Positions 9,396 through 30,555 of a DNA stretch of 32,000 nucleotides are shown piece by piece. Each line of letters begins with the position of its first letter. Position 1 is the first letter of the stretch. The translations under genes were made by a program, and so were the position numbers. Source of the DNA: Candidatus Iainarchaeum sp. (GTDB lineage Archaea > Iainarchaeota > Iainarchaeia > Iainarchaeales > 0-14-0-20-34-12); NCBI GenBank assembly GCA_030649345.1, contig JAUSKK010000002.1, positions 6,189 to 38,188 on the forward strand, given 5' to 3'. The notes beneath the pieces are model-generated. The model was not told where the DNA came from. It saw only the letters and a list, made by a program, of their open reading frames with translations, and searched no databases.

Positions 9396-9449
9396 GCAAT
9401 CACACGCACAAAAAAGGAAAAGAAATTAATAAGCTTTTCCAAAAAAAGC

Positions 9450-10208
9450 TTATCCTAAATGAGTGGTTCGCTTGGGATGCACTACAAAACCATAGGGTTT
9501 TTCAATTTTAGCTGGGTGCATTCGCAAAGAATGATTGGTTGAATGCATTTTATGAACCATCAAAGCACGATCAAATTGACGGCCTTTCTGCACTAAATAC
9601 AAAGCAATCACGCCATCTACCACATATTCTTCCACACCATAAACAGAAATCAATCCTTTATGGTCGTGCATGTCACACAATAACAAAGAAGTACAGCCTA
9701 ATTTTTTAATGGATTTTTCTAAATCCAATAAAGCTCTTCGTACTTTAAATTCATTCTGAAAATACATTGCAACAATCGAAATTGAGTCAATCACTAAACG
9801 AGTTGACTTTGAACGAACCACAGAATCTTCAATTTCCAATAACAATTTTTCAAAATCATACAAAGCAGGCTGAACCAAGGTTAACTTTTTTTCTCGAATA
9901 TATTCACGCGCAGGCCAGCCAAACAATTCAAGCTGAGTAACAATTGAATCTATGGATTCTTCTAAAGTAACAAAACACACAGGTTCGCCTTCTTGAATTC
10001 CTTGCATTAGAAAACTCAAACCCAAAGTAGTCTTTCCAGTTCCTGTCTTTCCAGTAACCAAAATCATGGAATTCTTAGGCAAACCGCCTTCCATTAAGTC
10101 ATCTAAACCACGTACACCTGTAGGCATTCGCTCAATTGAAATAGGCTGATCCAAAATCGCAGTATCCACTGAAGTTTCTACAATACTTTTAGCATTCATA
10201 CAATACAC
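9450..10208 (-). CDS. KaiC/RadA-like RecA-superfamily ATPase (single domain)
   Basis: GVRGLDDLMEGGLP, Walker A GKTGTGKT, Walker B RLVIDSI. About 250 aa, as in archaeal KaiC-like proteins. Confidence 0.8.
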   Translation of the reverse strand: MYCMNAKSIVETSVDTAILDQPISIERMPTGVRGLDDLMEGGLPKNSMILVTGKTGTGKTTLGLSFLMQGIQEGEPVCFVTLEESIDSIVTQLELFGWPAREYIREKKLTLVQPALYDFEKLLLEIEDSVVRSKSTRLVIDSISIVAMYFQNEFKVRRALLDLEKSIKKLGCTSLLLCDMHDHKGLISVYGVEEYVVDGVIALYLVQKGRQFDRALMVHKMHSTNHSLRMHPAKIEKPYGFVVHPKRTTHLG

Positions 10209-15932: not shown

Positions 15933-15973
15933 GCAAGCCTCAGTCAATTAATTCTATGATTGGGTTGAAATCA

Positions 15974-15981
15974 TTTTTATA
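15974..15981 (-). promoter_or_regulatory. TATA-box-like element (TATAAAAA on the minus strand) for the thiBPQ-orf-thiE operon
   Basis: Located ~45 nt upstream of the thiB ATG, in the only non-coding DNA upstream of the operon. Confidence 0.4.
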
Positions 15982-15991
15982 CAAATCGGTT

Positions 15992-16007
15992 TAAATTTGC
16001 AAATTTA
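15992..16007. promoter_or_regulatory. Perfect 16-bp palindrome TAAATTTGCAAATTTA; candidate operator upstream of the thiB TATA box
   Basis: Self-complementary over all 16 nt and positioned ~10 bp upstream of the TATA-like box. Confidence 0.35.
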
Positions 16008-16026
16008 CGTCAATATTAAATAAATT

Positions 16027-16120
16027 GGCTCAGAGTTGATGCCAGCTTGCGATCAAGCGTACCGCATGCATTAAGGTAGTTTACTGCTAACGTTCAACAC
16101 CTCATAAATATGCTAAGACT
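16027..16120. repeat. Partial duplicate (unit 1) of the unit containing the C/D sRNA; same ends, different interior
   Basis: Shares GGCTCAGAGTTGA (13/13), TTCAACAC-TCA-TAAATA (about 16/18) and TAAGACT with 16291-16470, in the same order. Confidence 0.5.
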
Positions 16121-16290
16121 CGGATTTAAGACAATAAAATAAATTGCGAGCAAAGCGAGTACGTGCTGCTGAAGCGAAGCGAAAGCAGCACTATTTTCTT
16201 TTGGGAACTTGCTGCAAAATCCTTGATTTTGCACATATGCAAAATTTTCAATTTTGCAGTATAGCTTTTCTTTTTCTAAAAGAAAAGATA
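16121..16290. repeat. Four-hairpin structured element, copy B (possible non-autonomous mobile element or structured RNA)
   Basis: Hairpins: 16163-16170/16184-16191 (8 bp, loop GAAGCGAAGCGAA); 16213-16221/16225-16233 (9 bp, loop CTT); 16238-16246/16250-16258 (9 bp, loop TTC, extended by ATA/TAT across bulged G16259); 16265-16274/16278-16287 (10 bp, loop TCT). Ends are TTTAAGACAAT and GATA. Confidence 0.65.
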
Positions 16291-16356
16291 GGCTCAGAGT
16301 TGAGTTATTTCATCACCAGCGTTCACGCGTCAGAAGGTGTTAACATCATCATTGCC
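16291..16356 (-). ncRNA. C/D box sRNA (2'-O-methylation guide)
   Basis: Minus strand reads GGC-A-AUGAUGA(C)-UGUUAACACCUU(12 nt)-CUGA(D')-CGCGUGAACGCUG-GUGAUGA(C')-AAUAACUCAACU(12 nt)-CUGA(D)-GCC. All four boxes are consensus, both guides are exactly 12 nt, and there is a GGC/GCC terminal stem. Confidence 0.7.
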
Positions 16357-16478
16357 AAAGAATTAGTACATCGTACTCTTTTTAACTTAAATCATCAAAA
16401 TTCGAATACTGATCCCAAAAAAGATTAATTTAACTTTCAACACTCAATAAATAGGCCATTCAATAAGACTATAAAAAA

Positions 16479-17054
16479 CTATTTCGAAATCTTATAAATA
16501 ACCTGCGGAAAAGTAATGGCTGGAAAAATAGAAGAACGCCATTCAATGATTTGAAAGTCAAAAGATTGTAAAAGGGCAGTCCATTCTTGTTTGGATTTAA
16601 AATAAAACGGAGTATGAACTTTAGCTAAAAAATTCCCAAGCCAGTCTGCAATTTTTAAAACACGCAATTCAAACTTGTTTTGATAATAATGATCTTTGAT
16701 TAAAACAGATTTCTTGGCAACCCGCAAAGATTCCTTCAATAAAATCTCTGAATTTTGAGTATGATGCAGCATGTCAATCAAAAAAACAGAATCAAACGAA
16801 TTATCTGGAAACGGAAGTTTTTGCCCGTCAAACAATAAAACATTAATTTTAGGATTTTTGGCTTGATACACATCAACTCCAACCAATTCAAGGTTTAATT
16901 GTTCTTGAATTTTTTTAGACAACCTGCCATCGCCGCAGCCTACGTCCAAACCAGTACGTTCTTCTTCAATCAGTTTTTGAAAACCTTGAACAATGTTCTG
17001 GTCACGTTTTCCAGCCAAAATAGTTTCAACCAAATTCGAAAACAAGCCAGCCAT
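16479..17054 (-). CDS. Class I SAM-dependent methyltransferase
   Basis: Motif I LDVGCGDGRLS, and the post-I/II motifs (VDVY..., FDSVFLIDMLHH). Confidence 0.75.
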   Translation of the reverse strand: MAGLFSNLVETILAGKRDQNIVQGFQKLIEEERTGLDVGCGDGRLSKKIQEQLNLELVGVDVYQAKNPKINVLLFDGQKLPFPDNSFDSVFLIDMLHHTQNSEILLKESLRVAKKSVLIKDHYYQNKFELRVLKIADWLGNFLAKVHTPFYFKSKQEWTALLQSFDFQIIEWRSSIFPAITFPQVIYKISK

Positions 17055-19803: not shown

Positions 19804-20670
19804 ATGAAATTTGGAAAACAAGTAACTCTAGGGTTAATCCAAATGAGTATGGCAGAAAACCCTGAAACAAATCTTGAAAAGGCAATTCAAAAAATAAACC
19901 AAGCAGCACAAAAAGGAGCCCAAATTATTTGCTTGCCAGAACTGTTTAATACACTTTATTTTCCGCAAGTTCCTAAAAACAAAAAATTCTTTCAATACGC
20001 TGAAAAAATTCCAGGAAAAACAACTAAAAGTTTAGGAAAGATCGCAAAAGAAAACAAAATAGTATTAATTGCTGGTTCAATCTTCGAAAAAGCAGGAAAC
20101 AAATACTACAACACAACTGTTGTGTTTAATGAAAAAGGAAAACTTTTAGGAAAATACAGAAAAACACACATTCCGCATGATCCCAATTTTTTTGAACAAC
20201 ACTATTTTGAACCAGGGAATACCGGATACCGGGTATTCAAAACCAAATACGGAAACATTGGAACACTCATTTGCTACGATCAATGGTTTCCAGAAGCAGC
20301 CAGAATTAATGCCTTAATGGGCGCAGATATTGTATTTTATCCTACTGCCATTGGCACCAATAAACACTTGCATCAAACTGAAGGAAACTGGCAGCAAGCC
20401 TGGGAAAACGTACAACGAGGACACGCCATTGCCAATGGAATAATTGTATGCGCAGTGAATAGAGTTGGAATAGAAAATAATTCCAAATTTTGGGGCGGGA
20501 GTTTTGTCTGCAATGGATTTGGAAAAACCATTAAGCGGGCAGGAAAAAAAGAAGAAGTCCTAATTGCTCAAGTTGATTTGGGGCATGGAAAATATGTCAA
20601 AGAAGGCTGGAGATTTTTCTACAATAGAAAACCAGAAACCTACAAGAAATTAATTGAAACCAAAAAGTGA
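19804..20670 (+). CDS. aguB: N-carbamoylputrescine amidase (nitrilase/CN-hydrolase superfamily)
   Basis: Glu-Lys-Cys triad context: CLPELF, YRKTHIP, LICYDQWFPE. About 290 aa. Confidence 0.8.
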   Translation: MKFGKQVTLGLIQMSMAENPETNLEKAIQKINQAAQKGAQIICLPELFNTLYFPQVPKNKKFFQYAEKIPGKTTKSLGKIAKENKIVLIAGSIFEKAGNKYYNTTVVFNEKGKLLGKYRKTHIPHDPNFFEQHYFEPGNTGYRVFKTKYGNIGTLICYDQWFPEAARINALMGADIVFYPTAIGTNKHLHQTEGNWQQAWENVQRGHAIANGIIVCAVNRVGIENNSKFWGGSFVCNGFGKTIKRAGKKEEVLIAQVDLGHGKYVKEGWRFFYNRKPETYKKLIETKK

Positions 20671-21719
20671 AAAAAATGAAAACACCCCAACAAGAAAACT
20701 TTCATATGCCAGCTGAATGGAACAAACACGAAGCTACTTGGTTAAGCTGGCCAAAAGACCCAGATACTTTTTCTGAAACCATTATTCAAAGCGTAGAAAA
20801 TATTTACTCAATCATGATTTCTGAACTTAGTCAAGGAGAAATTGTAAATGTTTTGGCTGAAAATTCTGAAATGAAAGAAAAAATTGAAAAATTAATTAAA
20901 GAAAAAAAAGCAAAAATGAAAAATGTAAAAGTTCATTTAATTAAAAGCATTGATGTATGGGCTAGAGATTATGGGCCGACCTTTTTATTGAATAAAAAAA
21001 CAAACCAATTAGGCTGCACAAAATGGATTTTTAATGCTTGGGGAAACAAATACAAAGAATTGCTAATGGACAATCAAACCGGAGAACGAATTGCACAAAT
21101 TTCAAAAGCACAAACATTCAAGCCCGAAATAGTCATGGAAGGCGGATCCATTGAAGTCAATGGCACAGGCACAGTTTTAGTTACAGAACAATGCCAGTTA
21201 AACAAAAACAGAAATCCTAAACTGAAAAAACAAGAAATTGAAAATTATTTAAAAGAATACTTACATGTTTCAAATATTGTTTGGCTCAAAGAAGGAATTG
21301 AAGGAGACGACACCGACGGCCATATCGATGATATTGCACGATTTGTGAATGAAAATACCATTGTTTATTGCATGGAAGAAAATAGGAAAGATAAAAATTT
21401 TGAAATACTTAAAGAAAATCAAAAAATTTTAGAAAAAGCAGTTAACGAAAAAGGCCAAAAATTCAAACTCATTCCTTTGCCGATGCCAAAGGCCATGTGG
21501 ATTCCAGGAAGAAGATTGGCAGCCAGTTATGCTAACTTTTACATTGCCAATGCCAGCGTTTTGGTTCCAATATACGATAAAAGCAAAGATTCGGAAGTTT
21601 TAAAATTATTTAAAAAATTATTTCCAAAAAAGAAAATTGTCGGAATTAACTGCACAGACCTAGTATACGGATATGGAAGCATTCATTGTGTTACGCAGCA
21701 ACAACCTGCAATAAAATAG
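20667..21719 (+). CDS. aguA: Agmatine deiminase
   Basis: MPAEW..H..TW, WARDYGP, EGGSIEVNGTGT, NRNP, DGHIDD, C-terminal GSIHCVTQQQP (catalytic Cys). Overlaps aguB by 4 nt. Confidence 0.85.
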   Translation: MKKMKTPQQENFHMPAEWNKHEATWLSWPKDPDTFSETIIQSVENIYSIMISELSQGEIVNVLAENSEMKEKIEKLIKEKKAKMKNVKVHLIKSIDVWARDYGPTFLLNKKTNQLGCTKWIFNAWGNKYKELLMDNQTGERIAQISKAQTFKPEIVMEGGSIEVNGTGTVLVTEQCQLNKNRNPKLKKQEIENYLKEYLHVSNIVWLKEGIEGDDTDGHIDDIARFVNENTIVYCMEENRKDKNFEILKENQKILEKAVNEKGQKFKLIPLPMPKAMWIPGRRLAASYANFYIANASVLVPIYDKSKDSEVLKLFKKLFPKKKIVGINCTDLVYGYGSIHCVTQQQPAIK

Positions 21720-21772
21720 TTTTTTATATAAGAAAAATAATAATTTAATACACAATAAACAGGAGTGAAACT

Positions 21773-22744
21773 ATGACTGGAACAATAACTTCGTTCATGA
21801 AAAAACATTATTTGCATTTTAATTCAGCTACAGTAATTGATGCAGCTGAAGCCTACAAAAAACATATTAACTCAGGAAAAAAAATGATGGTTACTTTAGC
21901 TGGAGCCATGAGCACAGCCGAACTTGGAAAATCTTTGGCTGAAATGATTCGAAAAAACAAAGTACACGCCATTACTTGCACTGGAGCTAATTTAGAAGAA
22001 GATGTTTACAACTTGGTTGCGCACAATCATTACAAACGAGTGCCCAATTATAGAAATTTATCCAATGAAGAAGAAGAAGCCTTAGCCAAAAAAGGATTAA
22101 ACAGAGTTACAGATACTTGCATTCCAGAAGATACAGCCATTCGAAAAATCGAAAAACATTTATTAAAATTATGGAAAGAACACGATCAAAAAAATGATCC
22201 CTGGTTACCGCATCAATACTTTTACGAACTATTATTATCCGGAGTTTTAGAAAAAGAATACCAAATTGACCCCAAAGACAGCTGGTTAATGGAAGCAGCC
22301 AAGAAAAATTTACCTATGTTTGTCCCAGGCTGGGAAGATTCAACCAATGGAAATATTTTTGTATCCCATTATGTTAAAGGAGATATTCAAAATTTGAATA
22401 CAGTCAAAGGCGGACTTCATTACATGAATGAATTAATTCACTGGTATACAAAAACTTCTAAAAAAACATCTATTGGATTTTTTCAAATCGGTGGAGGAAT
22501 TGCCGGAGACTTCCCTATCTGTGTCGTGCCTTTGTTAATGCAAGACATGAAACAAAAAGTTCCATTCTGGAGTTATTTTTGTCAAATCAGTGATTCAACC
22601 ACCAGCTATGGATCGTATTCTGGAGCAGTACCCAATGAAAAAATTACTTGGGGAAAACTAACCAAGACAACACCCAGATTTGTCATTGAATCAGATGCAA
22701 CCATTGTAGCACCATTAATTTTTGCCTACGTACTAAACTGGTAA
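21773..22744 (+). CDS. dys: Deoxyhypusine synthase
   Basis: Size and motifs fit DHS: LAGAMSTAE, TCTGANLEED, GGGIAGDFP, ITWGKL (catalytic Lys context), ESDATIVAPL. Confidence 0.8.
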   Translation: MTGTITSFMKKHYLHFNSATVIDAAEAYKKHINSGKKMMVTLAGAMSTAELGKSLAEMIRKNKVHAITCTGANLEEDVYNLVAHNHYKRVPNYRNLSNEEEEALAKKGLNRVTDTCIPEDTAIRKIEKHLLKLWKEHDQKNDPWLPHQYFYELLLSGVLEKEYQIDPKDSWLMEAAKKNLPMFVPGWEDSTNGNIFVSHYVKGDIQNLNTVKGGLHYMNELIHWYTKTSKKTSIGFFQIGGGIAGDFPICVVPLLMQDMKQKVPFWSYFCQISDSTTSYGSYSGAVPNEKITWGKLTKTTPRFVIESDATIVAPLIFAYVLNW

Positions 22745-22753
22745 GGTAAAAAT

Positions 22754-23443
22754 ATGCCAAAACCTACACGAAGATGGTTAAGACAAGTTGCCAGACAAGG
22801 CGCATTTGCACATCCATGGACTGTTCCATTAAAGCCAGATTTTGTTCGAAAAAAACCAAGGGCAACTACAGCAGGACAACCAGTAACTAAAGCAAAGCCT
22901 GCTGATAAAGCAAAAGAAACAGTCAAATTAAGACCAACACCTAAAAGAAAAACAGCTCAAACAAAAATAAAACCAATTAAAGTTGCAAGCATCGTATTTT
23001 CTTCTTCTGGAAAAAGAAATCCTGCATTTGAAAAAGAACTTCAAAGAAAACTAATTTCAGCATTCAGAAAATTTCAAGAAAAACATCCGCATGTAAAAGC
23101 AGTAATCTTTCCTTGCCAAATATGGCGCGATTATAGTTCAAGTTGGAACAGCAGAGCCATGGACAGTATTGGCTGGAGCTTGCAAACAGGATTTGTAACA
23201 GACCAACGATTAACCAGACAACAAGAAGCTGATTTACAACTTGACTTTGCGCGAGAATTTCGAAATGGAGCAAGTTCATTTGCAGACATTATCCCAGTAA
23301 ACCAATTTGAAAGATATTTAAAAGATAAAAAAAGAAGCTGGGATGGATATTTAAAAGATCAACAACAAACTGGATTAAAGGCAGCCATGCTTTTTGCTGG
23401 AGACATTGATGTGCAAAAAATTAAAACAACATTTAAAAAATAA
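22754..23443 (+). CDS. Hypothetical protein with a basic, disordered N-terminal ~80 aa; function unknown
   Basis: Starts 9 nt after the DHS stop. N-terminus is rich in K/R/P/T. I recognise no motif in the C-terminal ~150 aa. Confidence 0.55.
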   Translation: MPKPTRRWLRQVARQGAFAHPWTVPLKPDFVRKKPRATTAGQPVTKAKPADKAKETVKLRPTPKRKTAQTKIKPIKVASIVFSSSGKRNPAFEKELQRKLISAFRKFQEKHPHVKAVIFPCQIWRDYSSSWNSRAMDSIGWSLQTGFVTDQRLTRQQEADLQLDFAREFRNGASSFADIIPVNQFERYLKDKKRSWDGYLKDQQQTGLKAAMLFAGDIDVQKIKTTFKK

Positions 23444-23485
23444 AATAACTTCTAAAAAAAATTAATTAAAAAAAAGAAATAAAAA

Positions 23486-23505
23486 AGATGGAATAACATC
23501 CATCT
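23486..23505. terminator. Hairpin between convergent genes, flanked by an A-run and a T-run (bidirectional terminator candidate)
   Basis: AGATGGA-ATAACA-TCCATCT (7-bp stem), preceded by AAAAAA and followed by CTTGTTTTATTT. Confidence 0.4.
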
Positions 23506-23515
23506 CTTGTTTTAT

Positions 23516-23950
23516 TTATTGCACAATTACTTTTCCATATTTCCCAAGAACAGTATGATCATGGTAATTCCATGAACCTTGTTCAGTGAAAGTAAAAGAC
23601 CAAGATTCTCCTTGAGCTAAATCTTTACAAACATCAAAGATTCCAGCTTGTTCTTCAGTTCCGCATTTTTCAATACCAGAACCAGGGTAAGCTGTGTGTG
23701 TTGGATGCATGGCACTGGCAGGCCAATGACCTACAGAATCAGTATTGCTCCAAGTAACAGTTCCGCCTACAGGAATAGTAACTTCGTTGGGCTCAAATCC
23801 AGCAGAAGTAATAGTTACAGTCACAGACTCAGACAAAGAATCAGTTCCAGATTCTGTTGCAGCAGTACTTGAAGCAGGAGTTCCAGCTTGAGTACAACCC
23901 ACAATCAAAAAAAGTACAGAAAACAACACTAAAACACTCATTAACTTCAT
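23516..23950 (-). CDS. Cupredoxin-like secreted lipoprotein
   Basis: Lipobox LIVGC and a Ser/Thr linker. Beta-sandwich pattern FEPNEVTIPVGGTVTWSNTDSVGHW...GESWSFTF.EQGSWNYHDH...GKVIVQ. The canonical type-1 Cu Cys-His-Met ligand spacing is not obvious. Confidence 0.5.
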   Translation of the reverse strand: MKLMSVLVLFSVLFLIVGCTQAGTPASSTAATESGTDSLSESVTVTITSAGFEPNEVTIPVGGTVTWSNTDSVGHWPASAMHPTHTAYPGSGIEKCGTEEQAGIFDVCKDLAQGESWSFTFTEQGSWNYHDHTVLGKYGKVIVQ

Positions 23951-24058
23951 TTAATTACCTCCAAAAAAAACTAAATATACTACATAGTTGAGTATGTATA
24001 TTTAAGAATTATGTTCTCAAATCATTAATTTAAACGAATTTTAAGCATTGGTGAAAAA

Positions 24059-24424
24059 TTGAACAAAGAAATGCATACCACTCATTCTTCTACTAATGAA
24101 GAATCTGAACAAACACTTTTAAAAATCAAAGAAACAGAACTGGAAGCTGAAAAACGAATACAAACAGCCCAAAAAGAAGCTCAAGAAATTGTCGAAAAAG
24201 CCAAAAAAGAAAGCTTTCAAATAATTGAAAATTCTAAAAAAGAAATTGAACAAGAACGCCAACAAATTATTCAAACAGCCAAAAAAGAATTGGAAAAAGA
24301 AAAAAAAGAACAAGAAAAAAAAACAGAAGCACTCGTTCAAAAAATGAAAACAAACTCCCAAGCCAAAAAAACACAACTTGCTGAAAAAATACACCAAAGG
24401 TTTGTAGAGGAACTTCAATGCTAA
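24059..24424 (+). CDS. atpH: A-type ATP synthase subunit H
   Basis: Small, charged coiled-coil protein in first position of the operon. The track start is TTG 4-5 nt after GGTGA; an ATG at 24071 is the alternative. Confidence 0.7.
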   Translation: MNKEMHTTHSSTNEESEQTLLKIKETELEAEKRIQTAQKEAQEIVEKAKKESFQIIENSKKEIEQERQQIIQTAKKELEKEKKEQEKKTEALVQKMKTNSQAKKTQLAEKIHQRFVEELQC

Positions 24425-26193
24425 AAGCAGTCGAAATGCAAAAAGTTCGGGTCACAGGCCCTAAACTATTTTTACGCGAAGTCATTCAAGCACTGCACAC
24501 AGCTAAACTCATGCACTTAATCAGCTATGAAAAAAAAGATCAAGACTATTTCAATATCGGAAGTCCTTTTTCTGAAGCAACCGATTATTCCAATGCAGTA
24601 ATTGAAACACGATCTTTAATTGATTTTTTTAAAATCAAAGGAACTGGAAAAACAATCAACATCGAAAATGCTGCTGGAAAAATCCATACACTTCATAAAG
24701 AATTTCAAAATACATTAAAAATTCAAAAAGAAATTAAAGACACAATCAAAGAACTGGAAGGAAAAAATACCAACCAATTTTTTGAAACAGAAATTAATCA
24801 AAAAATTATTACACAATACAAAAACTTAGATATTTTTTTGGGAACCATTCAAAAACCTTTGGATAAAAAACAAATTGAAAAAAGTACTGCAAAATTCGAA
24901 TTGATTGAAAAAACAATCGACAAAAAAAATTGGATTGCTTTATTTGCTGACAAAAAAAGCAAAGAAAATATTCAAACACTTTTAAGAGAACATGGATTTA
25001 GCGAAGTAAAATACGTACACATTGATTTCAAACAAATTGAAAAAGAGTTAAATACAGCCAAAAAACAACTCGAAGAAACAGAACATACACTGAAACAAAT
25101 CGAAAACGAAAAACAATGGCTTTTAGATATTGAATACACCTTAAGCCAAGAAATTGAAAAAGCAGAAGTGCCTTTGCATTTTGCAACATCCAAAAACTCA
25201 TTTATTATTCACGGATGGATTCCAGCCAAACAATTAACTGAATTTAAGAAAAAATTAAATACAAAAACTATGGAAAAAATTTATTTTGAAGAATTTAAAG
25301 ACACCGAAAATGCGCCAGTGCAACTAAACAATCCTAAAGCCATCAGCCCATTTGAATTTTTTTTAAACTTATATACTTTACCCAAATATTATGAACTAGA
25401 TCCCAGCGCATTAATGGCATTTACATTTCCATTCTTTTTCGGATTCATGCTAGGCGATGTAGGCTATGGAGTCATTGCATTGATTCTGTTTCAAATTGTA
25501 AAACGAAAATTCAAAGACTTACAAGTTCAAGCCATTGCCAATATTTTAACCTTAGCCAGTATTGCCAGCATTATTTTTGGATTTGTATTCGGAGAAGTAT
25601 TTGGAGAAGAATTCATTGAACACCCTTTACTGAACCGAGTGCATGACATTAACACCATGCTTTTGGTCACAATAGCAGTTGGAATTATTCACTTGAATTT
25701 AGGATTTATTTTAGGATTCTACAACAAACTCAAACACCATGGATTCAAACACGCTTTGCTTGAAAAAGGAAGCTGGATTATAATCGAAATTGGAATTGCA
25801 ACAGCTCTTTTAGCAAACCAAACAGTCGGAGCAATCATAGCAGTCATTGGATTAATTATGTTATACAAAGGAGAAGGATTCAGAGGAATGATTGAGTTGC
25901 CAGCCTTGCTTAGCAATATTTTATCCTATGCACGATTATTCGCCATAGGCCTAGCTTCAGTTCAATTGGCCTTAATTGTAAACATGCTGGCAGGACAAGC
26001 TCTTGGCTTAGGAATTATAGGATACGTTTTAGCGGCATTTGTAATACTCATCGGCCATGGACTTAATTTATTCCTAGGCTTATTGGGGCCATTCATTCAA
26101 TCTTTGCGATTGCATTATGTTGAATGGTTTTCAAAATTCTTCGAAGGCGGAGGAGAACCCTACAAGCCTTTTGGAATCAAAGAAAAAGCATAA
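24418..26193 (+). CDS. atpI: A-type ATP synthase subunit I (stator a-subunit)
   Basis: N-terminal soluble coiled-coil half, C-terminal multi-TM half with the essential-Arg motif LSYARLFAIGLAS. Confidence 0.9.
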   Translation: MLKAVEMQKVRVTGPKLFLREVIQALHTAKLMHLISYEKKDQDYFNIGSPFSEATDYSNAVIETRSLIDFFKIKGTGKTINIENAAGKIHTLHKEFQNTLKIQKEIKDTIKELEGKNTNQFFETEINQKIITQYKNLDIFLGTIQKPLDKKQIEKSTAKFELIEKTIDKKNWIALFADKKSKENIQTLLREHGFSEVKYVHIDFKQIEKELNTAKKQLEETEHTLKQIENEKQWLLDIEYTLSQEIEKAEVPLHFATSKNSFIIHGWIPAKQLTEFKKKLNTKTMEKIYFEEFKDTENAPVQLNNPKAISPFEFFLNLYTLPKYYELDPSALMAFTFPFFFGFMLGDVGYGVIALILFQIVKRKFKDLQVQAIANILTLASIASIIFGFVFGEVFGEEFIEHPLLNRVHDINTMLLVTIAVGIIHLNLGFILGFYNKLKHHGFKHALLEKGSWIIIEIGIATALLANQTVGAIIAVIGLIMLYKGEGFRGMIELPALLSNILSYARLFAIGLASVQLALIVNMLAGQALGLGIIGYVLAAFVILIGHGLNLFLGLLGPFIQSLRLHYVEWFSKFFEGGGEPYKPFGIKEKA

Positions 26194-26226
26194 CAAGATT
26201 TAAAAAAATTTCAATACACACGTATA

Positions 26227-26305
26227 ATAGTAATATACACTATTACTATATTTAACAAAAATAAAACAAAGTGATAAAAAAATGGTTTCAAAATCAAGGA
26301 TTTTG
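26227..26305. repeat. Hairpin cluster in the atpI-atpK spacer (degenerate relative of the four-hairpin element)
   Basis: ATAGTAATA-TACAC-TATTACTAT (26227-26249, 9 bp). CAAAATC-AAG-GATTTTG (26289-26305), whose core AAAATCAAGGATTTT differs at 1 of 15 positions from AAAATCAAAGATTTT in copy A. Confidence 0.35.
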
Positions 26306-26335
26306 GCATAATTGTCAAAAGCTTAATAGATTTTG

Positions 26336-26364
26336 AAAACTTTAAAAAACTGGGAGGTTTTTTA
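26336..26364 (+). promoter_or_regulatory. Conserved SD-containing leader immediately upstream of atpK
   Basis: AAAACTTTAAAAAACTGGGAGGTTTTTTA-ATG is 26/29 identical to the leader of atpB. Confidence 0.5.
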
Positions 26365-26598
26365 ATGGCAGACATCAACACAGGGTTAATTGCAATCGGG
26401 GCAAGTATTGCAATGGCAGCAAGTGCTTTGGCAGCCGCATGGGCTGAAAAAGAAATTGGAACAGCCGCAGTAGGAGCTTTAGCTGAAAAAGAACAATTAT
26501 TCGGAAAAGCACTGATCTTAACAGTTATTCCGGAAACCATTGTAATTTTCGGATTGGTTGTAGCTATCCTAATCATCGGAATGGCTGGAAAGGCTTAA
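26365..26598 (+). CDS. atpK: A-type ATP synthase proteolipid subunit K (c)
   Basis: 77 aa, two TM helices, ion-binding Glu in VIPETIVIFG. Confidence 0.9.
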   Translation: MADINTGLIAIGASIAMAASALAAAWAEKEIGTAAVGALAEKEQLFGKALILTVIPETIVIFGLVVAILIIGMAGKA

Positions 26599-26686
26599 AC
26601 AGTCTGCCGCCAGTCAATTAAGAAAACAAGGAAAACCATGGGTTTAAAATTTGTAACAAATTTTAAAATCCCAGGGGGAATTTTAA

Positions 26687-27247
26687 ATGGGTTTGGAAAA
26701 AGTAATTCAAGAAATCAAAGAACAAACAGAAAATGAATGCAAAAACATTCTAAAACAAGCCAGCGAAACAAGGCAGCACATTATCCAAGAAGCCAATGCC
26801 CAAGCTGAACAATTCAAACAACAAGCCAGCAAAGAATCTGACTTGTTAGCTGAAGAAATTAAAAACAAAGAATTATCTCAGCATCGCTTAGAACAAAACA
26901 AAAAAATTATGGAAACCAAATCCAAAGCAGTTCAAGAAATTTTCCAAACAGCATTGGAAAAAACAAAAACTTTAAGTGAAAATCAACGAAAACAATTATT
27001 GAAAAAATTACTGGAAAAAGGCTTGAAAGAATTGGAAAACGCAAAGTATGTGTACACCAATAAACAAGATACAAAATTAGTGCAGGAATTAGCCAAACAA
27101 TTAAAACATGCAGGCGAAATTCAGTGCACTTCAGGAATTGTTTTAGAAAACGCAGACAAAACAATCAAAGTCAATTATACATTTGAAGTTTTGTTTGAAA
27201 AAACCAAAGAGGAGAATTTACATGAAATTTCAAATGATGCGTTTTAA
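26687..27247 (+). CDS. atpE: A-type ATP synthase subunit E
   Basis: 186 aa. N-terminal long charged helix plus C-terminal globular domain (GIVLENADKTIKVNYTFE). Correct position in the operon. Confidence 0.85.
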   Translation: MGLEKVIQEIKEQTENECKNILKQASETRQHIIQEANAQAEQFKQQASKESDLLAEEIKNKELSQHRLEQNKKIMETKSKAVQEIFQTALEKTKTLSENQRKQLLKKLLEKGLKELENAKYVYTNKQDTKLVQELAKQLKHAGEIQCTSGIVLENADKTIKVNYTFEVLFEKTKEENLHEISNDAF

Positions 27248-28208
27248 TCCATTCGAATCCGCCAGCGGAAGCTCTTTGGATAAAACTTTTCGAAAAAGTT
27301 TTAACGGAAACAGCGGATTTCCCTACACCAATACCAGAGTACGGGTAATGAAAACACGACTATTGGGCGGAGCAGATTACAAACGATTAATGAATATGAG
27401 CGTACCTGAAATAACAAGATTTCTAGAAGAATCAGACTATAAAACAGAAATCGATTCATTGTCCCAGCAATTCAAAGGACTAAACTTAATTGAATACAGT
27501 TTAATGAAAAATTTAGAACGAACCTTTAAACGCATTTACGATTTTTCACTCAAACAAGCCAACCAGCAACTTGGATTATTTTTAAAAAAATGGGATTACT
27601 GGAATATTAAAATATTACTGCGAGGCTTACAAACCAAGTCCAACAAAAATGAAATCATGCACAACATGGTTTTGGTGGGAGACTTTAAATCAGAATTTTT
27701 TGAACGAATCCTTAACAATGCACAAACCATTGAACAAGCCATTGATTACTTTAAAGACACCAATTTTTACCCTATTTTAAGCAAACACAAAAATAGTTTG
27801 GCAAAATTAGAAGATGAACTGGATCGATTTTATTATTTAAATTTATTGGAAAATTCCAGCAAAGAATTACGCAATTTTGGAAAAAACCAAATTAAAAGCA
27901 TCAATACATTAAACATGCTGCGATTAAAAGACTTGGATTCCAAAAAAGATTTTTTGATTCCCGGAATGGACGAAATCATGCAAGTCCCCGAAGGCTTAGA
28001 TGACTTAGAAAAAATTGCTTACGTAAAACGAGAACAACTCGAAAATGGATTGCATAAAATGCATTCATTCAAATCCAACATGGATCCATTGCTGGGTTAT
28101 TTTACAGCCAAAGAAATCGAAGTCAACAATTTACGAATGATTATTCGCGGAAAACAAACAGGAATTGCCGCAGAAAAAATTGAAAAAAGTTTAGTATATT
28201 TAAGTTAA
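27222..28208 (+). CDS. atpC: A-type ATP synthase subunit C
   Basis: Position and size fit. YTNTRVRVMKTRLL matches the AtpC N-terminus. I prefer the ATG at 27222 (GAGGAG upstream) over the TTG at 27183 on the track. Confidence 0.85.
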   Translation: MKFQMMRFNPFESASGSSLDKTFRKSFNGNSGFPYTNTRVRVMKTRLLGGADYKRLMNMSVPEITRFLEESDYKTEIDSLSQQFKGLNLIEYSLMKNLERTFKRIYDFSLKQANQQLGLFLKKWDYWNIKILLRGLQTKSNKNEIMHNMVLVGDFKSEFFERILNNAQTIEQAIDYFKDTNFYPILSKHKNSLAKLEDELDRFYYLNLLENSSKELRNFGKNQIKSINTLNMLRLKDLDSKKDFLIPGMDEIMQVPEGLDDLEKIAYVKREQLENGLHKMHSFKSNMDPLLGYFTAKEIEVNNLRMIIRGKQTGIAAEKIEKSLVYLS

Positions 28209-28237
28209 AAAAATAACTTTAAAAAAATGGTGACGCT

Positions 28238-28537
28238 TTGGAAATTGCAATTTTAGGAAACGATGAATTTGTAACTGGATTCAGACTCAGCGGAGTCAAA
28301 AACATAATTACTGCTGAAGGAAAAGAACTAAGCAAAAAAATTGAAGAAGTCATTGACCAGCAAAAAATAGGAATTTTAGTCATGGAACATTTAGATTTTT
28401 CACAATTAAACAACAATGTCAAAAAAAAATTAGACCGAACTGTAACACCTGTAGTTGTAACATTAAGCAAAGATGCCAAAACATCCGATTTACGGGAATT
28501 GGTTAAAAAAAGTATTGGAATTGACTTGTGGAAATAA
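28238..28537 (+). CDS. atpF: A-type ATP synthase subunit F
   Basis: 99 aa. IAILGNDEFVTGFRLSGV is the typical subunit F N-terminus. TTG start after GGTGA. Confidence 0.85.
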   Translation: MEIAILGNDEFVTGFRLSGVKNIITAEGKELSKKIEEVIDQQKIGILVMEHLDFSQLNNNVKKKLDRTVTPVVVTLSKDAKTSDLRELVKKSIGIDLWK

Positions 28538-28585
28538 TAAAATGATTATATTTAATAGATAAAATATTTAGGAAAAGGTGAACCT

Positions 28586-30328
28586 ATGAGCGAAGCAACA
28601 ATTTACAGAATTTCAGGACCAGTAGTCATTGCCAAAGGATTGAGTGCCAAAATGTATGATTTGGTTTTGGTTGGAAAAGAAAAACTTTTAGGAGAAGTCA
28701 TTCAAATTACAGGAGAAACTACCACCATTCAAGTCTATGAAGAAACATCTGGATTAACACCCGGAGAACCCATTGAAAACACACAAGCACCTTTATCGGT
28801 TGAATTGGGTCCAGGAATTTTAACTCAAATTTACGATGGAATCCAAAGACCTTTAGCTGGACTGCAAGAAATTATGGGAGACTTCATTAAACGCGGAGCC
28901 ACAGCTTCAGCCTTGGATCGAAAAAAGAAATGGGAATTCAAAGCAATTGCTAAAAAAGGAGACTCAGTTTCCGGCGGAGATATTCTAGGAACAGTTCAAG
29001 AAACAGTCAACATTGAACACAAAATATTAGTACCACCGAATATTAAAGGAACATTAAAAAATATTCAAAGCGGAAAATTTAATATTGATGAAGTTATTGG
29101 AACTTTAGAAAATGGAACTGAATTAAAACTAGCCCATAAATGGCCAGTCAGACAACAAAGGCCTTACCAGCAAAAATTAGCACCCGACATTCCATTAATC
29201 ACTGGACAAAGAATTATTGACACACTATTTCCAATTGCTAAAGGAGGAACTGCAGCAATTCCAGGACCTTTTGGTTCAGGAAAAACAGTAACTCAAAGTC
29301 AATTAGCTAAATGGAGTGATGCCCAAATTGTAGTCTACATTGGATGCGGTGAAAGAGGCAATGAGATGACTGAAGTATTAACCGAATTTCCTCACTTGCA
29401 AGATGTAAAAACTGGCCGGCCTTTAATGGAACGAACTGTGTTAATTGCAAACACTTCCAATATGCCAGTGGCAGCCAGAGAAGCCAGTGTTTATACAGGA
29501 ATGACGATTGCAGAATATTTTAGAGACCAAGGATTGGATGTCAGCTTAATGGCAGACTCTACAAGCAGATGGGCTGAAGCCATGAGAGAAATTGGTTCAC
29601 GCTTAGAAGAAATGCCAGGAGAAGAAGGATATCCAGCATACTTAGCTTCCAGATTATCTGAATTCTATGAACGAGCCGGCCGAGTAATTTGCATTGGAAA
29701 AGACGCAAAAATGGGAAGTGTTACAGCCATTGGAGCAGTCAGTCCAGCAGGCGGAGACTTCTCTGAACCAGTCACCCAAAATACATTAAAGATTACCAAA
29801 GTTTTCTGGGCATTGGATGCAAAACTAGCACAAAAAAGACACTTCCCAGCCATCAATTGGCTAGAAAGTTATTCTTTGTATTCTGAAAACTTAAAAAACT
29901 GGTTTGCAAAAAATGTCGCCGAAGACTGGCCAGCTCAAAGAACAGAAGCCATGAAAATTTTGCAAAAAGAAGCAGAATTACAAGAAATTGTTCAATTGGT
30001 AGGCAGCGATTCACTGCCAGAAAAAGAACGATTAACTTTAGAAATCGCAAAACTAATCCGAGAAGCTTTCCTGCAGCAAAACGCCTACCATGAAGTGGAT
30101 ACTTATTGTAGTCCCAAAAAACAACACGGAATTATGAAAGCAATTTTAGAATATGCTGAAATGGGAAGAACAGCTTTAGAACAAGGAGCCAGCATTGAAA
30201 GAATTGCCAATATTGAAAGCAAAAACAAATTAGTTAAAATAGCATTTAAAACAGAAAAAGAATTTGAAACAGAAATCAAACAAATCCATCAACAAATGGA
30301 ACAAGAGTTCAAAGAAATTATTACATAA
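28586..30328 (+). CDS. atpA: A-type ATP synthase catalytic subunit A
   Basis: Walker A GPFGSGKT, non-homologous insert region, SRWAEALREI-like [23 protein letters not shown]. Confidence 0.95.
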
Positions 30329-30449
30329 TATTAAACAAGACAATCGAACGAAGTGAAGATTGTCTATCAGGAGGTATCATAAAATCAAAGATTTTATGTA
30401 TATGCAAAACTTAGAGTTTTGCAGTATATCGGAACCTAAGGTTCTGATA
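30329..30449. repeat. Four-hairpin structured element, copy A, inserted between the atpA stop and a duplicated copy of the atpA 3' end
   Basis: Hairpins: 30338-30345/30358-30365 (8 bp, loop GAACGAAGTGAA); 30378-30386/30390-30398 (9 bp, loop AAA); 30403-30411/30415-30423 (9 bp, loop TAG, extended by TATA/TATA across bulged G30424); 30429-30436/30440-30447 (8 bp with one G-T, loop TAA). Ends are TTAAACAAGACAAT and GATA. Confidence 0.65.
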
Positions 30450-30482
30450 ATGGAACAAGAATTTAAAGAAATAATTGCATAA
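30450..30482 (+). repeat. Non-coding duplicate of the last 10 codons plus stop of atpA
   Basis: ATGGAACAAGAATTTAAAGAAATAATTGCATAA versus atpA 30296-30328 ATGGAACAAGAGTTCAAAGAAATTATTACATAA: 29/33 identical. It would encode [10 protein letters not shown] versus [10 protein letters not shown]. Confidence 0.8.
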
Positions 30483-30526
30483 TTTTGAAAGGTGATACAG
30501 AAATGATTTTAAAATTAGGAATTTTA

Positions 30527-30555
30527 AAAACTTTAAAAAACCAGGAGATTTTTTA
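30527..30555 (+). promoter_or_regulatory. Conserved SD-containing leader immediately upstream of atpB
   Basis: AAAACTTTAAAAAACCAGGAGATTTTTTA-ATG is 26/29 identical to the leader of atpK. Confidence 0.5.

What the first reader, a model, noticed from the sequence alone, without database searches (positions are those of the whole stretch)
16121..16290. Second copy of the four-hairpin element in the thiB-upstream non-coding island
Hairpin order, loop sizes and end motifs match the atpA-atpB copy. Hairpin 1 is GTGCTGCT/AGCAGCAC with a 13-nt loop, GAAGCGAAGCGAA. Hairpin 2 is TGCAAAATC-CTT-GATTTTGCA. Hairpin 3 is ATA-TGCAAAATT-TTC-AATTTTGCA-(G)-TAT. Hairpin 4 is CTTTTCTTTT-TCT-AAAAGAAAAG, followed by GATA. 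Relative to copy A, the stems of hairpins 1, 2 and 4 are almost completely different in sequence yet stay perfectly paired. The hairpin-1 loops keep a (G/C)GAAG-repeat character in both copies. This copy has ~40 extra nt (GCGAGCAAAGCGAG... and CTATTTTCTTTTGGGAACTTGC). Hairpins 2 and 3 both carry the inverted repeat TGCAAAAT-N3-ATTTTGCA, which could equally be a dimeric protein-binding site.
Basis: seen in the sequence. Interest (0 to 1): 0.75.

Follow-up and report, generated by a model that had tools for sequence, protein, structure and literature searches.

The report
Four-hairpin intergenic repeat in DPANN archaeon
A small non-coding DNA segment made of four hairpins occurs twice in this fragment of an uncultured DPANN archaeal genome, each time flanked by a duplicated piece of the neighbouring gene, so it looks like a lineage-specific palindromic repeat inserted between genes; its function and copy number are unknown.

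Summary
Window 16163-16290 has the four hairpins as described. A second copy lies at 30336-30449, between atpA and atpB. The two share a 48-nt core, the same hairpin order and a conserved hairpin-1 loop. Of 38 comparable stem pairs, 19 differ, always on both sides, and all still pair.

The window comes from a 'Candidatus Diapherotrites' (DPANN) archaeon, not a bacterium. Three things were missed:
- The "non-coding island" holds a canonical C/D box sRNA on the minus strand (16356->16291), directly abutting the element.
- Both copies are bracketed by diverged direct duplications of host DNA. One is 41 nt of the atpA 3' end. The other is about 120-195 nt that includes the sRNA. So 16121-16149 is duplicated flank, not element.
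- Relatives at 75% atpA identity have atpA-atpB spacers of at most 50 nt, so the element is a secondary insertion.

No further copy turned up in GTDB genomes, JGI metagenomes, IMG/VR, plasmids, phages or Rfam. The rest of the source genome could not be reached.

Best reading: a lineage-specific, non-autonomous palindromic repeat, REP/BIME- or MITE-like in kind. It fails the MITE tests (no terminal inverted repeats, no short target duplication). Mechanism and function remain inferred.

The parts
16150..16290 (+). Element copy B (E_B), about 141 nt: a purine-rich lead (GCAAAGCGAG), H1, a spacer, H2, H3, H4, then the ...GATA end. The left border is uncertain by about 10 nt.
   Evidence: The border comes from where the flank duplication ends.
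16163..16191 (+). Hairpin 1 of copy B: an 8-bp stem GTGCTGCT/AGCAGCAC with loop GAAGCGAAGCGAA. The loop contains GCGAAGC, so an inner GC-GAA-GC mini-hairpin flanked by GAA/GAA is possible.
   Evidence: The loop matches the copy A loop GAACGAAGTGAA at 11 of 13 positions with one gap (read directly from the two loop sequences printed). Seven of the 8 stem pairs differ from copy A on both sides.
16213..16233 (+). Hairpin 2 of copy B: TGCAAAATC-CTT-GATTTTGCA. The core AAAATC-N3-GATTTT is shared with copy A.
16235..16262 (+). Hairpin 3 of copy B: ATA-TGCAAAATT-TTC-AATTTTGCA-G-TAT. This is the most conserved block of the element.
   Evidence: (family D16).
16265..16290 (+). Hairpin 4 of copy B (CTTTTCTTTT-TCT-AAAAGAAAAG) plus the terminal ATA. 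On the minus strand it supplies TCTTTTCTTTT directly after the sRNA 3' end.
16027..16149 (+). Left flank duplicate R1(B). It is a decayed copy of 16291-16487. It keeps the last 13 nt of the sRNA (GGCTCAGAGTTGA, i.e. the D box plus part of the guide on the minus strand), but the C, D' and C' boxes are lost.
   Evidence: families D2, D3, D7. In one search the collinear alignment scores 70.9, against a maximum of 50.5 in 500 shuffles and 48.9 in 479 genomic controls.
16291..16487 (+). Right flank duplicate R2(B). It spans the spacer between the methyltransferase gene stop (16479-16481) and the sRNA 3' end, and it contains the intact sRNA.
16291..16356 (-). C/D box sRNA, 66 nt: GGC-AAUGAUGA (C)...CUGA (D')...GUGAUGA (C')...CUGA (D)-GCC. 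Its 3' end is 1 nt from the element.
   Evidence: There are matches to many archaeal and eukaryotic C/D box models; the best is sR1 at 22.9 bits, E=0.0014. All are below the gathering score. The boxes can be read directly in the alignment.
30336..30449 (+). Element copy A (E_A), about 113 nt. It starts 8 nt after the atpA stop codon and contains H1 to H4 and the GATA end.
30295..30335 (+). Flank duplicate R1(A): the live last 10 codons of atpA ([10 protein letters not shown]), the stop codon and 7 further nt.
   Evidence: family D17. In one search the alignment scores 52, against a shuffle maximum of 34. The 6 differences are listed.
30449..30489 (+). Flank duplicate R2(A): an orphan copy of the atpA 3' end ([10 protein letters not shown] plus stop), 85% identical to R1(A).
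30492..30555 (+). The rest of the atpA-atpB spacer. It is a duplicate of the atpK leader (26271-26364) with a 29-nt deletion. It includes an AAAATT-AGG-AATTTT palindrome, a TATA-like CTTTAAAAAAC and a GGAG Shine-Dalgarno-like motif.
   Evidence: family D13. In one search the alignment scores 77.2, against a shuffle maximum of 53.9.

Best explanation
The segment is one of at least two copies of a lineage-specific, non-coding, structure-defined repeat (113-141 nt) in a DPANN (Diapherotrites) archaeal chromosome.

Anatomy:
- A sequence-conserved double palindrome forms H2 and H3: AAAATC-N3-GATTTT, 4 nt, then ATATGCAAAAY-N5-RTTTTGCAGTATA.
- On either side are two hairpins conserved only as structures.
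- H1 additionally keeps a purine-rich loop of the form GAA-(G)CGAAG-YGAA.

Origin. The element is not ancestral to its loci. It entered compact intergenic spacers next to the 3' end of a gene (atpA in one case, a C/D box sRNA in the other). In both cases the event left a direct duplication of the adjacent host sequence on each side.

Proposed mode of action. I take it to be a non-autonomous, REP/BIME- or MITE-like palindromic element that works as folded single-stranded nucleic acid. That would be ssDNA hairpins during mobilisation or replication, and possibly RNA hairpins at transcript 3' ends. It is not simply a double-stranded operator. Its hairpins are kept perfect either by selection or by arm-to-arm templated correction.

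What is shown: two homologous copies, the hairpins, complementarity retained at variable positions, the flank duplications, and absence from relatives' spacers.

What is inferred: mobility, the single-stranded mode of action, and the way insertion duplicates the target.
For: - Homology and architecture of the two copies.
- Hairpin runs are unique to these two loci in the window (2 observed, 0 in 20 shuffles). None occur in about 80 kb from relatives.
- Nineteen of 19 variable stem pairs changed on both sides and still pair.
- If the 41-nt duplication around copy A was identical at insertion, its 6/41 divergence implies roughly 7-10% change per neutral site. At that rate the chance that the 76 stem nucleotides of copy A carry at most one change is 0.02 to 0.003. 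The stems are therefore maintained.
- Secondary insertion: atpA-atpB spacers are 50 nt, 17 nt or an overlap in relatives, against 227 nt here. The atpI-atpK spacers are 12-16 nt against 172 nt. The thiB upstream spacer is 39 nt in another relative.
- Flank duplications are significant at both loci.
- No Rfam family matches the element, and no coding signal was seen.
- All apical loops of H2-H4 are 3 nt. The H1 loop of copy B contains GCGAAGC, the hyperstable DNA mini-hairpin motif found at ssDNA priming sites (PMC13037366). This favours a DNA-level hairpin but is only a lead.
- Both copies lie in the same orientation on the + strand, although local transcription runs in opposite directions at the two loci.
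Against: - Only two copies are known.
- Exact-pattern scans of 185,579 species genomes, JGI metagenomes and IMG/VR, and blastn against plasmids and phages, gave only chance hits. Neither multi-copy status nor mobility is demonstrated.
- No transposase, integrase, Rep or reverse transcriptase gene lies in the 32-kb window.
- There are no terminal inverted repeats, and the target duplications are not short or of fixed length.
- Flank duplications of 41 and at least 120 nt fit no known prokaryotic transposition chemistry.
- The zero one-sided stem changes could mean that H1 and H4 are simply non-homologous palindromes rather than covarying stems.
Confidence: 0.55

Rival explanations
1. Operator array. 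H2 and H3, and the similar palindromes in the atpK and atpB leaders, are double-stranded binding sites for a dimeric archaeal transcription factor or chromatin protein that reads AAAATY-N3-RATTTT. On this view the element is a portable regulatory cassette.
For: - AAAATY-N3-RATTTT occurs 5 times against 0.5 expected. All five sites lie in the three large intergenic islands.
- The two leader sites sit 19-48 nt upstream of a TATA-like CTTTAAAAAAC.
- The H2-H3 centre-to-centre distance is 25 bp in both copies (read from the hairpin coordinates).
Against: - The positions outside the AAAATY core differ between copies yet remain complementary (3/3 in H2). The H1 and H4 stems share no sequence between copies but are perfect palindromes. 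A sequence-reading dimer does not require this.
- The atpK and atpB leader sites are copies of one another, so they count as one independent occurrence.
- The covariance model built on H2-H3 scores the leaders only at E=0.1 to 0.55.
Confidence: 0.15
2. Structured RNA. The four hairpins act in transcripts, either as a 3'-end protection, processing or termination module for the upstream gene (atpA mRNA, the C/D sRNA), or as an independent small RNA read from the + strand.
For: - Both copies start or end within 1-8 nt of a gene's 3' end.
- The + strand folds better than the minus strand as RNA: -50.4 against -41.3 kcal/mol for copy B and -37.5 against -31.3 for copy A.
- The single non-Watson-Crick pair is G.U on the + strand.
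- On the minus strand, H4 of copy B places UCUUUUCUUUU directly after the sRNA. Oligo-U tracts of this kind are archaeal termination signals (established knowledge).
Against: - Relative to local transcription the two copies are in opposite orientation. Copy A is sense to the atp operon. Copy B is antisense to the sRNA and thiB.
- The T-tracts are not conserved between copies.
- Perfect 9-10-bp stems with 3-nt loops are more typical of DNA palindromes than of functional RNAs.
- There is no Rfam match.
- No conserved promoter spacing precedes H1.
Confidence: 0.2
3. Recombination scar. The element is what remains between attL- and attR-like repeats after site-specific or Campbell-type (single crossover) integration of foreign DNA that carried a copy of the target's 3' end. 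Alternatively it is filler copied in during template-switch repair. In that case the hairpins are passengers.
For: - The direct repeats bracketing both copies include a gene's 3' end. This is the pattern seen for integrases that target gene ends (established knowledge).
- Three of the 4 coding differences between R1(A) and R2(A) are synonymous, as expected if one copy came from a diverged allele.
- The whole atpA-atpB spacer is a patchwork of copied pieces.
Against: - Two different targets would each need their own att homology.
- Two independent scars would not be expected to keep the same 113-141-nt four-hairpin unit with perfect stems.
- No integrase gene lies nearby.
- The synonymous bias is not significant (my estimate, not a tool result: about 0.11 that at least 3 of 4 coding differences fall at third codon positions).
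Confidence: 0.08
4. Chance, or an assembly artefact of AT-rich palindromes.
For: - The genome is 34% G+C and generally rich in perfect short hairpins: 34 against 2-6 in shuffles.
- Logan contigs break inside the hairpins.
Against: - The alignment, motif and cluster statistics all exceed every shuffle.
- Independent Logan contigs reproduce the window sequence base for base across H1-H2 of both copies and across H3-H4 plus the element/R2 junction of copy B.
Confidence: 0.02

Closest known systems
REP / BIME / REPIN elements of bacteria (mobilised by RAYT, a Y1 HUH transposase)
   Same: - Both are short extragenic palindromes clustered into a composite unit.
- Both sit at gene 3' ends inside operons.
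- In both, structure is better conserved than sequence.
- Neither has coding capacity.
- REPs are thought to act as ssDNA hairpins for mobilisation and as RNA hairpins for mRNA stability (PMC2817692, PMC3116915, PMC3733652).
   Different: - This element is in an archaeon.
- No GTAG or CGTC tag is present.
- The four hairpins are unlike one another, apart from H2 and H3.
- Copy number is unknown.
- No RAYT gene was seen.
- REPs are not bracketed by long duplications of host DNA.
MITEs, including the archaeal MITEs reported at high density in some DPANN genomes (PMC11602168)
   Same: Both are small, non-coding, intergenic, lineage-specific, present in more than one copy, and flanked by a duplication of the target.
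   Different: - This element has no terminal inverted repeats.
- Its flank duplications are 41 nt and at least 120 nt. MITEs have a fixed 2-10 bp duplication.
IS200/IS605 ends and their transposase-less derivatives (PATEs)
   Same: Both have subterminal hairpins on one strand. Both show an orientation-specific architecture with no terminal inverted repeats. The family is widespread in archaea (established knowledge).
   Different: - IS200/IS605 elements insert 3' of a fixed tetra- or pentanucleotide and make no target duplication.
- No conserved target word precedes the two copies here.
- No tnpA or tnpB gene is in the window.
Modular multi-hairpin intergenic repeats of bacteria (BOX, Correia/NEMIS, ERIC, RUP)
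   Same: Both are 100-150-nt composite units of several stem-loops. Both lie in intergenic spacers and operons and can carry promoter-, terminator- or processing-like signals.
   Different: No sequence relation exists. Those elements have terminal inverted repeats and/or defined short target duplications, and tens to hundreds of copies.
Single-strand initiation signals and rolling-circle origins (a nick or priming hairpin with a conserved loop, next to a binding palindrome)
   Same: - H1 has a variable stem with a conserved 12-13-nt loop next to conserved palindromes.
- The H1 loop of copy B contains the GCGAAGC mini-hairpin motif found at ssDNA priming sites (PMC13037366).
- The 'bind site plus nick hairpin' layout matches that described for pT181 and the archaeal Rep-Arvir origins (PMC13107129).
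   Different: The element is chromosomal, lies between housekeeping genes, and has no Rep or primase gene nearby. The resemblance is one of form only.

Membership tests
MITE | Terminal inverted repeats of at least 10-15 bp | tested here: not met
   The ends are CAAGACAATC... / ...GGTTCTGATA in copy A and GCAAAGCGAG... / ...AAAGAAAAGATA in copy B. No inverted repeat joins the two ends.
MITE | Short target site duplication of fixed length (2-10 bp) | tested here: not met
   The flank duplications are 41 nt for copy A and about 120-195 nt, with indels, for copy B.
MITE | Many copies per genome and a related autonomous IS | not testable with these tools
   Only the 32-kb window and three Logan contigs of the same organism could be reached. 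No transposase gene lies in the window.
REP/BIME (REPIN-RAYT) | Units are 20-40-nt imperfect palindromes clustered into a composite element | tested here: met
   There are four palindromic units of 21-29 nt within 113-141 nt.
REP/BIME (REPIN-RAYT) | Conserved GTAG or CGTC tag at one end of the palindrome | tested here: not met
   Neither GTAG/CTAC nor CGTC/GACG occurs in either copy. This was read directly from the sequences.
REP/BIME (REPIN-RAYT) | High copy number and a cognate RAYT gene | not testable with these tools
   The rest of the genome is not available. There is no Y1 transposase in the window.
IS200/IS605-derived element (PATE) | Subterminal hairpins at both ends, on one strand | tested here: met
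   In copy A, H1 starts 2 nt from the left end and H4 ends 1 nt from the right end. In copy B, H4 ends 3 nt from the right end.
IS200/IS605-derived element (PATE) | Insertion 3' of a conserved tetra- or pentanucleotide, with no target duplication | tested here: not met
   The left flanks are ...TATTAAA| and ...AATTGCGA|, which share no word. Both copies are bracketed by duplications.
Any Rfam RNA family | Score at or above the family's gathering threshold | tested here: not met
   There are no hits at gathering threshold in the window. Within the element only chance-level hits appear, with E of at least 3.
Archaeal C/D box sRNA (the neighbouring gene at 16356->16291, not the element) | Boxes C (RUGAUGA), D' (CUGA), C' (UGAUGA) and D (CUGA) in order, guides of about 12 nt, and a short terminal stem | tested here: met
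   All four boxes and the GGC/GCC stem can be read in the alignments. The Rfam scores (up to 25 bits) are below the gathering score, as is usual for these short models. No rRNA target could be checked.
Rolling-circle origin / ssDNA initiation signal | A cognate Rep or primase and demonstrated nicking or priming at the hairpin loop | not testable with these tools
   Only the form is similar: a variable H1 stem with a conserved loop next to conserved palindromes.

The most novel reading that the evidence does not exclude
The element represents an undescribed way of inserting small structured DNA into archaeal chromosomes. Insertion would duplicate tens to hundreds of nucleotides of the target, for example through widely staggered nicks, target-primed or template-switch synthesis, or single-crossover integration of a tiny circle carrying target homology. 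The result is gene-3'-end / element / orphan-3'-end structures. Insertion would be followed by compensating duplications, such as the copied atpK leader that now precedes atpB. If the full genome holds many copies, each with variable-length flank duplications, this would be a new class of archaeal mobile element and a new source of intergenic DNA in streamlined DPANN genomes.
Probability: 0.12. Interest if true: 0.7.

Novelty: new variant of a known kind. Interest (0 to 1): 0.4.

Why it matters
DPANN archaea have very small, tightly packed genomes. In this window, the three intergenic spacers I found to be longer than about 110 nt all contain these palindromes (gene layout).

A lineage-specific hairpin element that has split the otherwise tightly coupled atpA-atpB pair, and that sits against a C/D box sRNA gene, shows how non-coding DNA is created in such genomes.

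The long, variable duplications of host sequence around both copies do not fit known transposon chemistry. If they recur at more copies, they would point to a new insertion mechanism.

On present evidence, with two copies and no function shown, this is a modest and mostly descriptive finding.

Tried and rejected
Searches for further copies:
- Exact-pattern scan of the H3 core in genome contigs gave 107 hits. All are singletons in unrelated bacteria, and none has hairpin 2 upstream.
- The same core in metagenome contigs gave 2 chance hits.
- Two patterns in IMG/VR gave only chance hits.
- blastn against plasmids and phages found nothing.
- A covariance model of H2-H3 run over the window and relatives' loci found only the two copies. 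Weak hits at the atpB leader, atpK leader and 23974-24025 were inspected and not accepted.
- A possible third, decayed copy in the atpI-atpK spacer was not significant (p about 0.01 to 0.06 depending on scoring). It was rejected except for the shared AAAATC-N3-GATTTT palindrome.

Reaching the rest of the genome:
- Exact-protein look-ups gave only three Logan contigs, all lying inside the window. Two look-ups found nothing.
- No relative is closer than 75% (atpA) or 68% (thiB) amino-acid identity, so no population or near-species comparison was possible.

Other readings considered and dropped:
- A TPP riboswitch upstream of thiB: no hit at E up to 10.
- A small protein. The shared core reads MQN(F/L)(Q/E)FCSI in one frame (my reading of the sequences), but the differences between copies follow the stems rather than codons, and the SD-like AGGAGG lies about 20 nt from the ATG.
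- H/ACA sRNA, K-turn and BHB-intron readings of the hairpins, rejected by inspection (no pocket, no asymmetric bulge, no bulge-helix-bulge).
- Assembly breaks as evidence of extra copies. Logan contigs end at 16235, 16246 and 30391, each inside the H2-H3 hairpin block (30391 is 2 nt past the H2 loop of copy A, 16246 is 1 nt before the H3 loop of copy B). This points to a hairpin effect on sequencing or assembly rather than to repeats.
- An internal 8-9-nt direct repeat around H2-H3 was seen by eye but not supported by the repeat finder in copy A.

Full report
**Source and setting**

The window is archaeal. Its atpA product is identical to a protein that NCBI names as coming from a 'Candidatus Diapherotrites archaeon' MAG, on a 38,188-bp contig. 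The next relative is only 75% identical. The genes are typical of a DPANN archaeon: an A-type ATPase operon, deoxyhypusine synthase, agmatine deiminase, RNase HII, a KaiC/RadA-like ATPase, thiE, and a thiamine ABC transporter. G+C is about 34%.

The genome is compact. In my gene layout built from the ORF list, only three intergenic spacers exceed about 110 nt:
- 15933-16478, upstream of thiB;
- 26194-26365, between atpI and atpK;
- 30329-30555, between atpA and atpB.

**Checking the observation**

- H1 at 16163-16191: an 8-bp stem with the loop GAAGCGAAGCGAA;
- H2 at 16213-16233;
- H3 at 16235-16262, with a bulged G;
- H4 at 16265-16287, followed by ATA.

The other copy is at 30336-30449.

Several statistics put this beyond chance:
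- The two copies align over 48 nt (AAAATC...GCAGTATA) with score 41. The maximum in 300 dinucleotide shuffles is 25.
- The H3 core pattern occurs exactly twice, against 0.02 expected.
- Runs of three or more adjacent hairpins occur at these two places only. There are none in 20 shuffles of the window and none in about 80 kb from relatives.
- Both copies fold far better than shuffles on either strand, as RNA or as DNA, with z from -4.0 to -9.0.

I aligned the stems by hand, from the loops outward, and compared 38 pairs. Nineteen are identical. Nineteen differ on both sides. None differs on one side only. Every pair is standard, with a single G.T in H4 of copy A.

The H1 stems differ at 7 of 8 pairs, yet the loops (GAACGAAGTGAA and GAAGCGAAGCGAA) are nearly the same.

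1. *A C/D box sRNA gene.* On the minus strand, 16356->16291 is a canonical archaeal C/D box sRNA. It has the terminal stem GGC/GCC and boxes C (AUGAUGA), D' (CUGA), C' (GUGAUGA) and D (CUGA). It matches many C/D models; the best is sR1 at E=0.0014, and all are below gathering. Its 3' end is 1 nt from the GATA end of the element.

2. *Duplicated host DNA around both copies.*
   - Copy A: 30295-30335 holds the last ten codons of atpA, the stop codon and 7 further nt. It recurs at 30449-30489 with 6 differences (score 52 against a shuffle maximum of 34).
   - Copy B: 16027-16149 aligns collinearly with 16291-16487. The shared blocks are GGCTCAGAGTTGA (13 of 13), TAACnTTCAACAC..ATAAATA and TAAGACnATAAAA. 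The score is 70.9, against a maximum of 50.5 in shuffles and 48.9 in genomic controls.
   - The right-hand copy at locus B holds the intact sRNA. The left-hand copy keeps only the sRNA's last 13 nt and has lost the other boxes.
The element is about 16150-16290.

3. *The rest of the atpA-atpB spacer is also copied DNA.* Positions 30492-30555 duplicate the atpK leader at 26271-26364 (score 77 against a maximum of 54). The 227-nt spacer therefore consists of the element, an orphan atpA tail, and a copied leader.

**Is the element ancestral or inserted?**

Relatives with 74-76% identical atpA have atpA-atpB spacers of 50 nt, 17 nt or an overlap. Their atpI-atpK spacers are 12-16 nt. A relative's thiB lies 39 nt from the preceding gene, in a different gene order. 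The element and its accompanying duplications are therefore additions in this lineage.

**Search for more copies**

- Exact-pattern scans of the GTDB species genomes, the JGI metagenomes and IMG/VR returned only chance matches.
- blastn against plasmids and phages found nothing.
- Rfam has no matching family.
- A covariance model of H2-H3 finds only the two copies in the window and nothing in relatives.
- The rest of the source genome could not be reached. The only other records of this organism are three Logan contigs that lie inside the window.

Those three contigs reproduce the window base for base. This argues against an assembly artefact. Three of their six ends fall inside the H2-H3 hairpin block: 30391, 16235 and 16246. 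I read this as a hairpin effect on sequencing or assembly, not as evidence for more copies.

**Interpretation**

Complementarity kept at positions that are not conserved in sequence is hard to reconcile with a simple double-stranded operator. This applies to 3 of 3 variable pairs in H2, 7 of 7 in H1 and 8 of 8 in H4. It indicates that hairpin formation itself matters, or that the arms are copied from one another.

If the copy A flank repeats were identical at insertion, their 15% divergence gives a rough clock. At 7-10% change per neutral site, the chance that the 76 stem nucleotides of copy A carry at most one change is 0.02 to 0.003. The stems are therefore maintained.

Several features lean towards a DNA-level hairpin, but none is decisive:
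- the uniform 3-nt loops;
- the GCGAAGC mini-hairpin motif in the H1 loop of copy B (PMC13037366);
- the shared + strand orientation, despite opposite local transcription.

The + strand also folds better as RNA, and the one wobble pair is G.U on that strand. An RNA role at gene 3' ends therefore stays open.

The conserved AAAATY-N3-RATTTT core recurs in the atpK and atpB leaders. It occurs 5 times against 0.5 expected, always in the three large spacers. This keeps a protein-binding component plausible.

I therefore commit to this reading: a lineage-specific, non-autonomous palindromic repeat of the REP/BIME/MITE kind, inserted secondarily and structurally maintained. My confidence is about 0.55.

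**Membership**

- MITE: fails. It has no terminal inverted repeats and no short fixed target duplication.
- IS200/IS605-type insertion: fails. There is no shared target word, and duplications are present.
- REP: it lacks the GTAG or CGTC tag. Copy number and a cognate transposase cannot be tested.

It works like these elements in outline but cannot be filed under any of them.

**Unexplained**

- The flank duplications of 41 and at least 120 nt fit no known prokaryotic transposition mechanism.
- The stem differences between copies are all-or-none.

These two points are the most interesting aspects. They support a low-probability reading (about 0.12) of a new insertion mechanism.

**Verdict**

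The feature is real and correctly described. It was partly mis-bounded, and it sits in an archaeal rather than a bacterial context. It is of moderate interest pending the full genome.

Noticed in passing
window 16291-16356 (minus strand): A C/D box sRNA gene with canonical C, D', C' and D boxes and a GGC/GCC terminal stem. A TATA-like TTTAAGTT lies about 27 nt upstream (16391->16384). A decayed partial copy that keeps only the D box end lies at 16027-16039 and the adjoining sequence.
   Followed up: partly
window 26271-26364 and 30492-30555: The atpB leader is a duplicate of the atpK leader, with a 29-nt deletion. It includes a palindrome, a TATA-like CTTTAAAAAAC and a GGAG Shine-Dalgarno-like motif. 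atpB, which is normally coupled to atpA, may therefore have acquired its own expression signals after the element separated the two genes.
   Followed up: partly
window 16216-16230, 16241-16255, 26290-26304, 30381-30395, 30511-30525: The palindrome AAAATY-N3-RATTTT occurs 5 times against 0.5 expected. It is found only in the three large intergenic spacers.
   Followed up: partly
window-wide, e.g. 9429-9453, 26227-26249, 26643-26667, 27281-27303: There is a general excess of perfect hairpins with stems of at least 8 bp and loops of 3-7 nt: 34 counted, against 2-6 in shuffles. Several lie in short spacers after genes.
   Followed up: no
Logan contigs L108 (window 20600-30391), L162 (7980-16235), L116 (16246-17185): Independent k=31 assemblies of run SRR13727527 are identical to the window. 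They break at 30391, 16235 and 16246, all inside the H2-H3 hairpin block of the two copies, and 10 nt (16236-16245) are missing between two of the contigs.
   Followed up: partly
L111 7143-9737 (GCA_964442255.1, the closest relative found): The relative's atpB is 864 aa and carries an intein (LAGLIDADG and Intein_splicing domains). The window's atpB is 458 aa and has none.
   Followed up: no
window 15933-16120 (minus strand, thiB 5' region): No TPP riboswitch is detectable upstream of the thiamine ABC transporter operon at E up to 10. A TATA-like ATATTTATGAGG (16110->16099, minus strand) resembles two further copies at 16456->16431 and 16500->16483.
   Followed up: partly
window 16174-16180: The H1 loop of copy B contains GCGAAGC, the hyperstable DNA mini-hairpin sequence reported at ssDNA priming sites. 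Copy A has only the inner CGAAG.
   Followed up: partly
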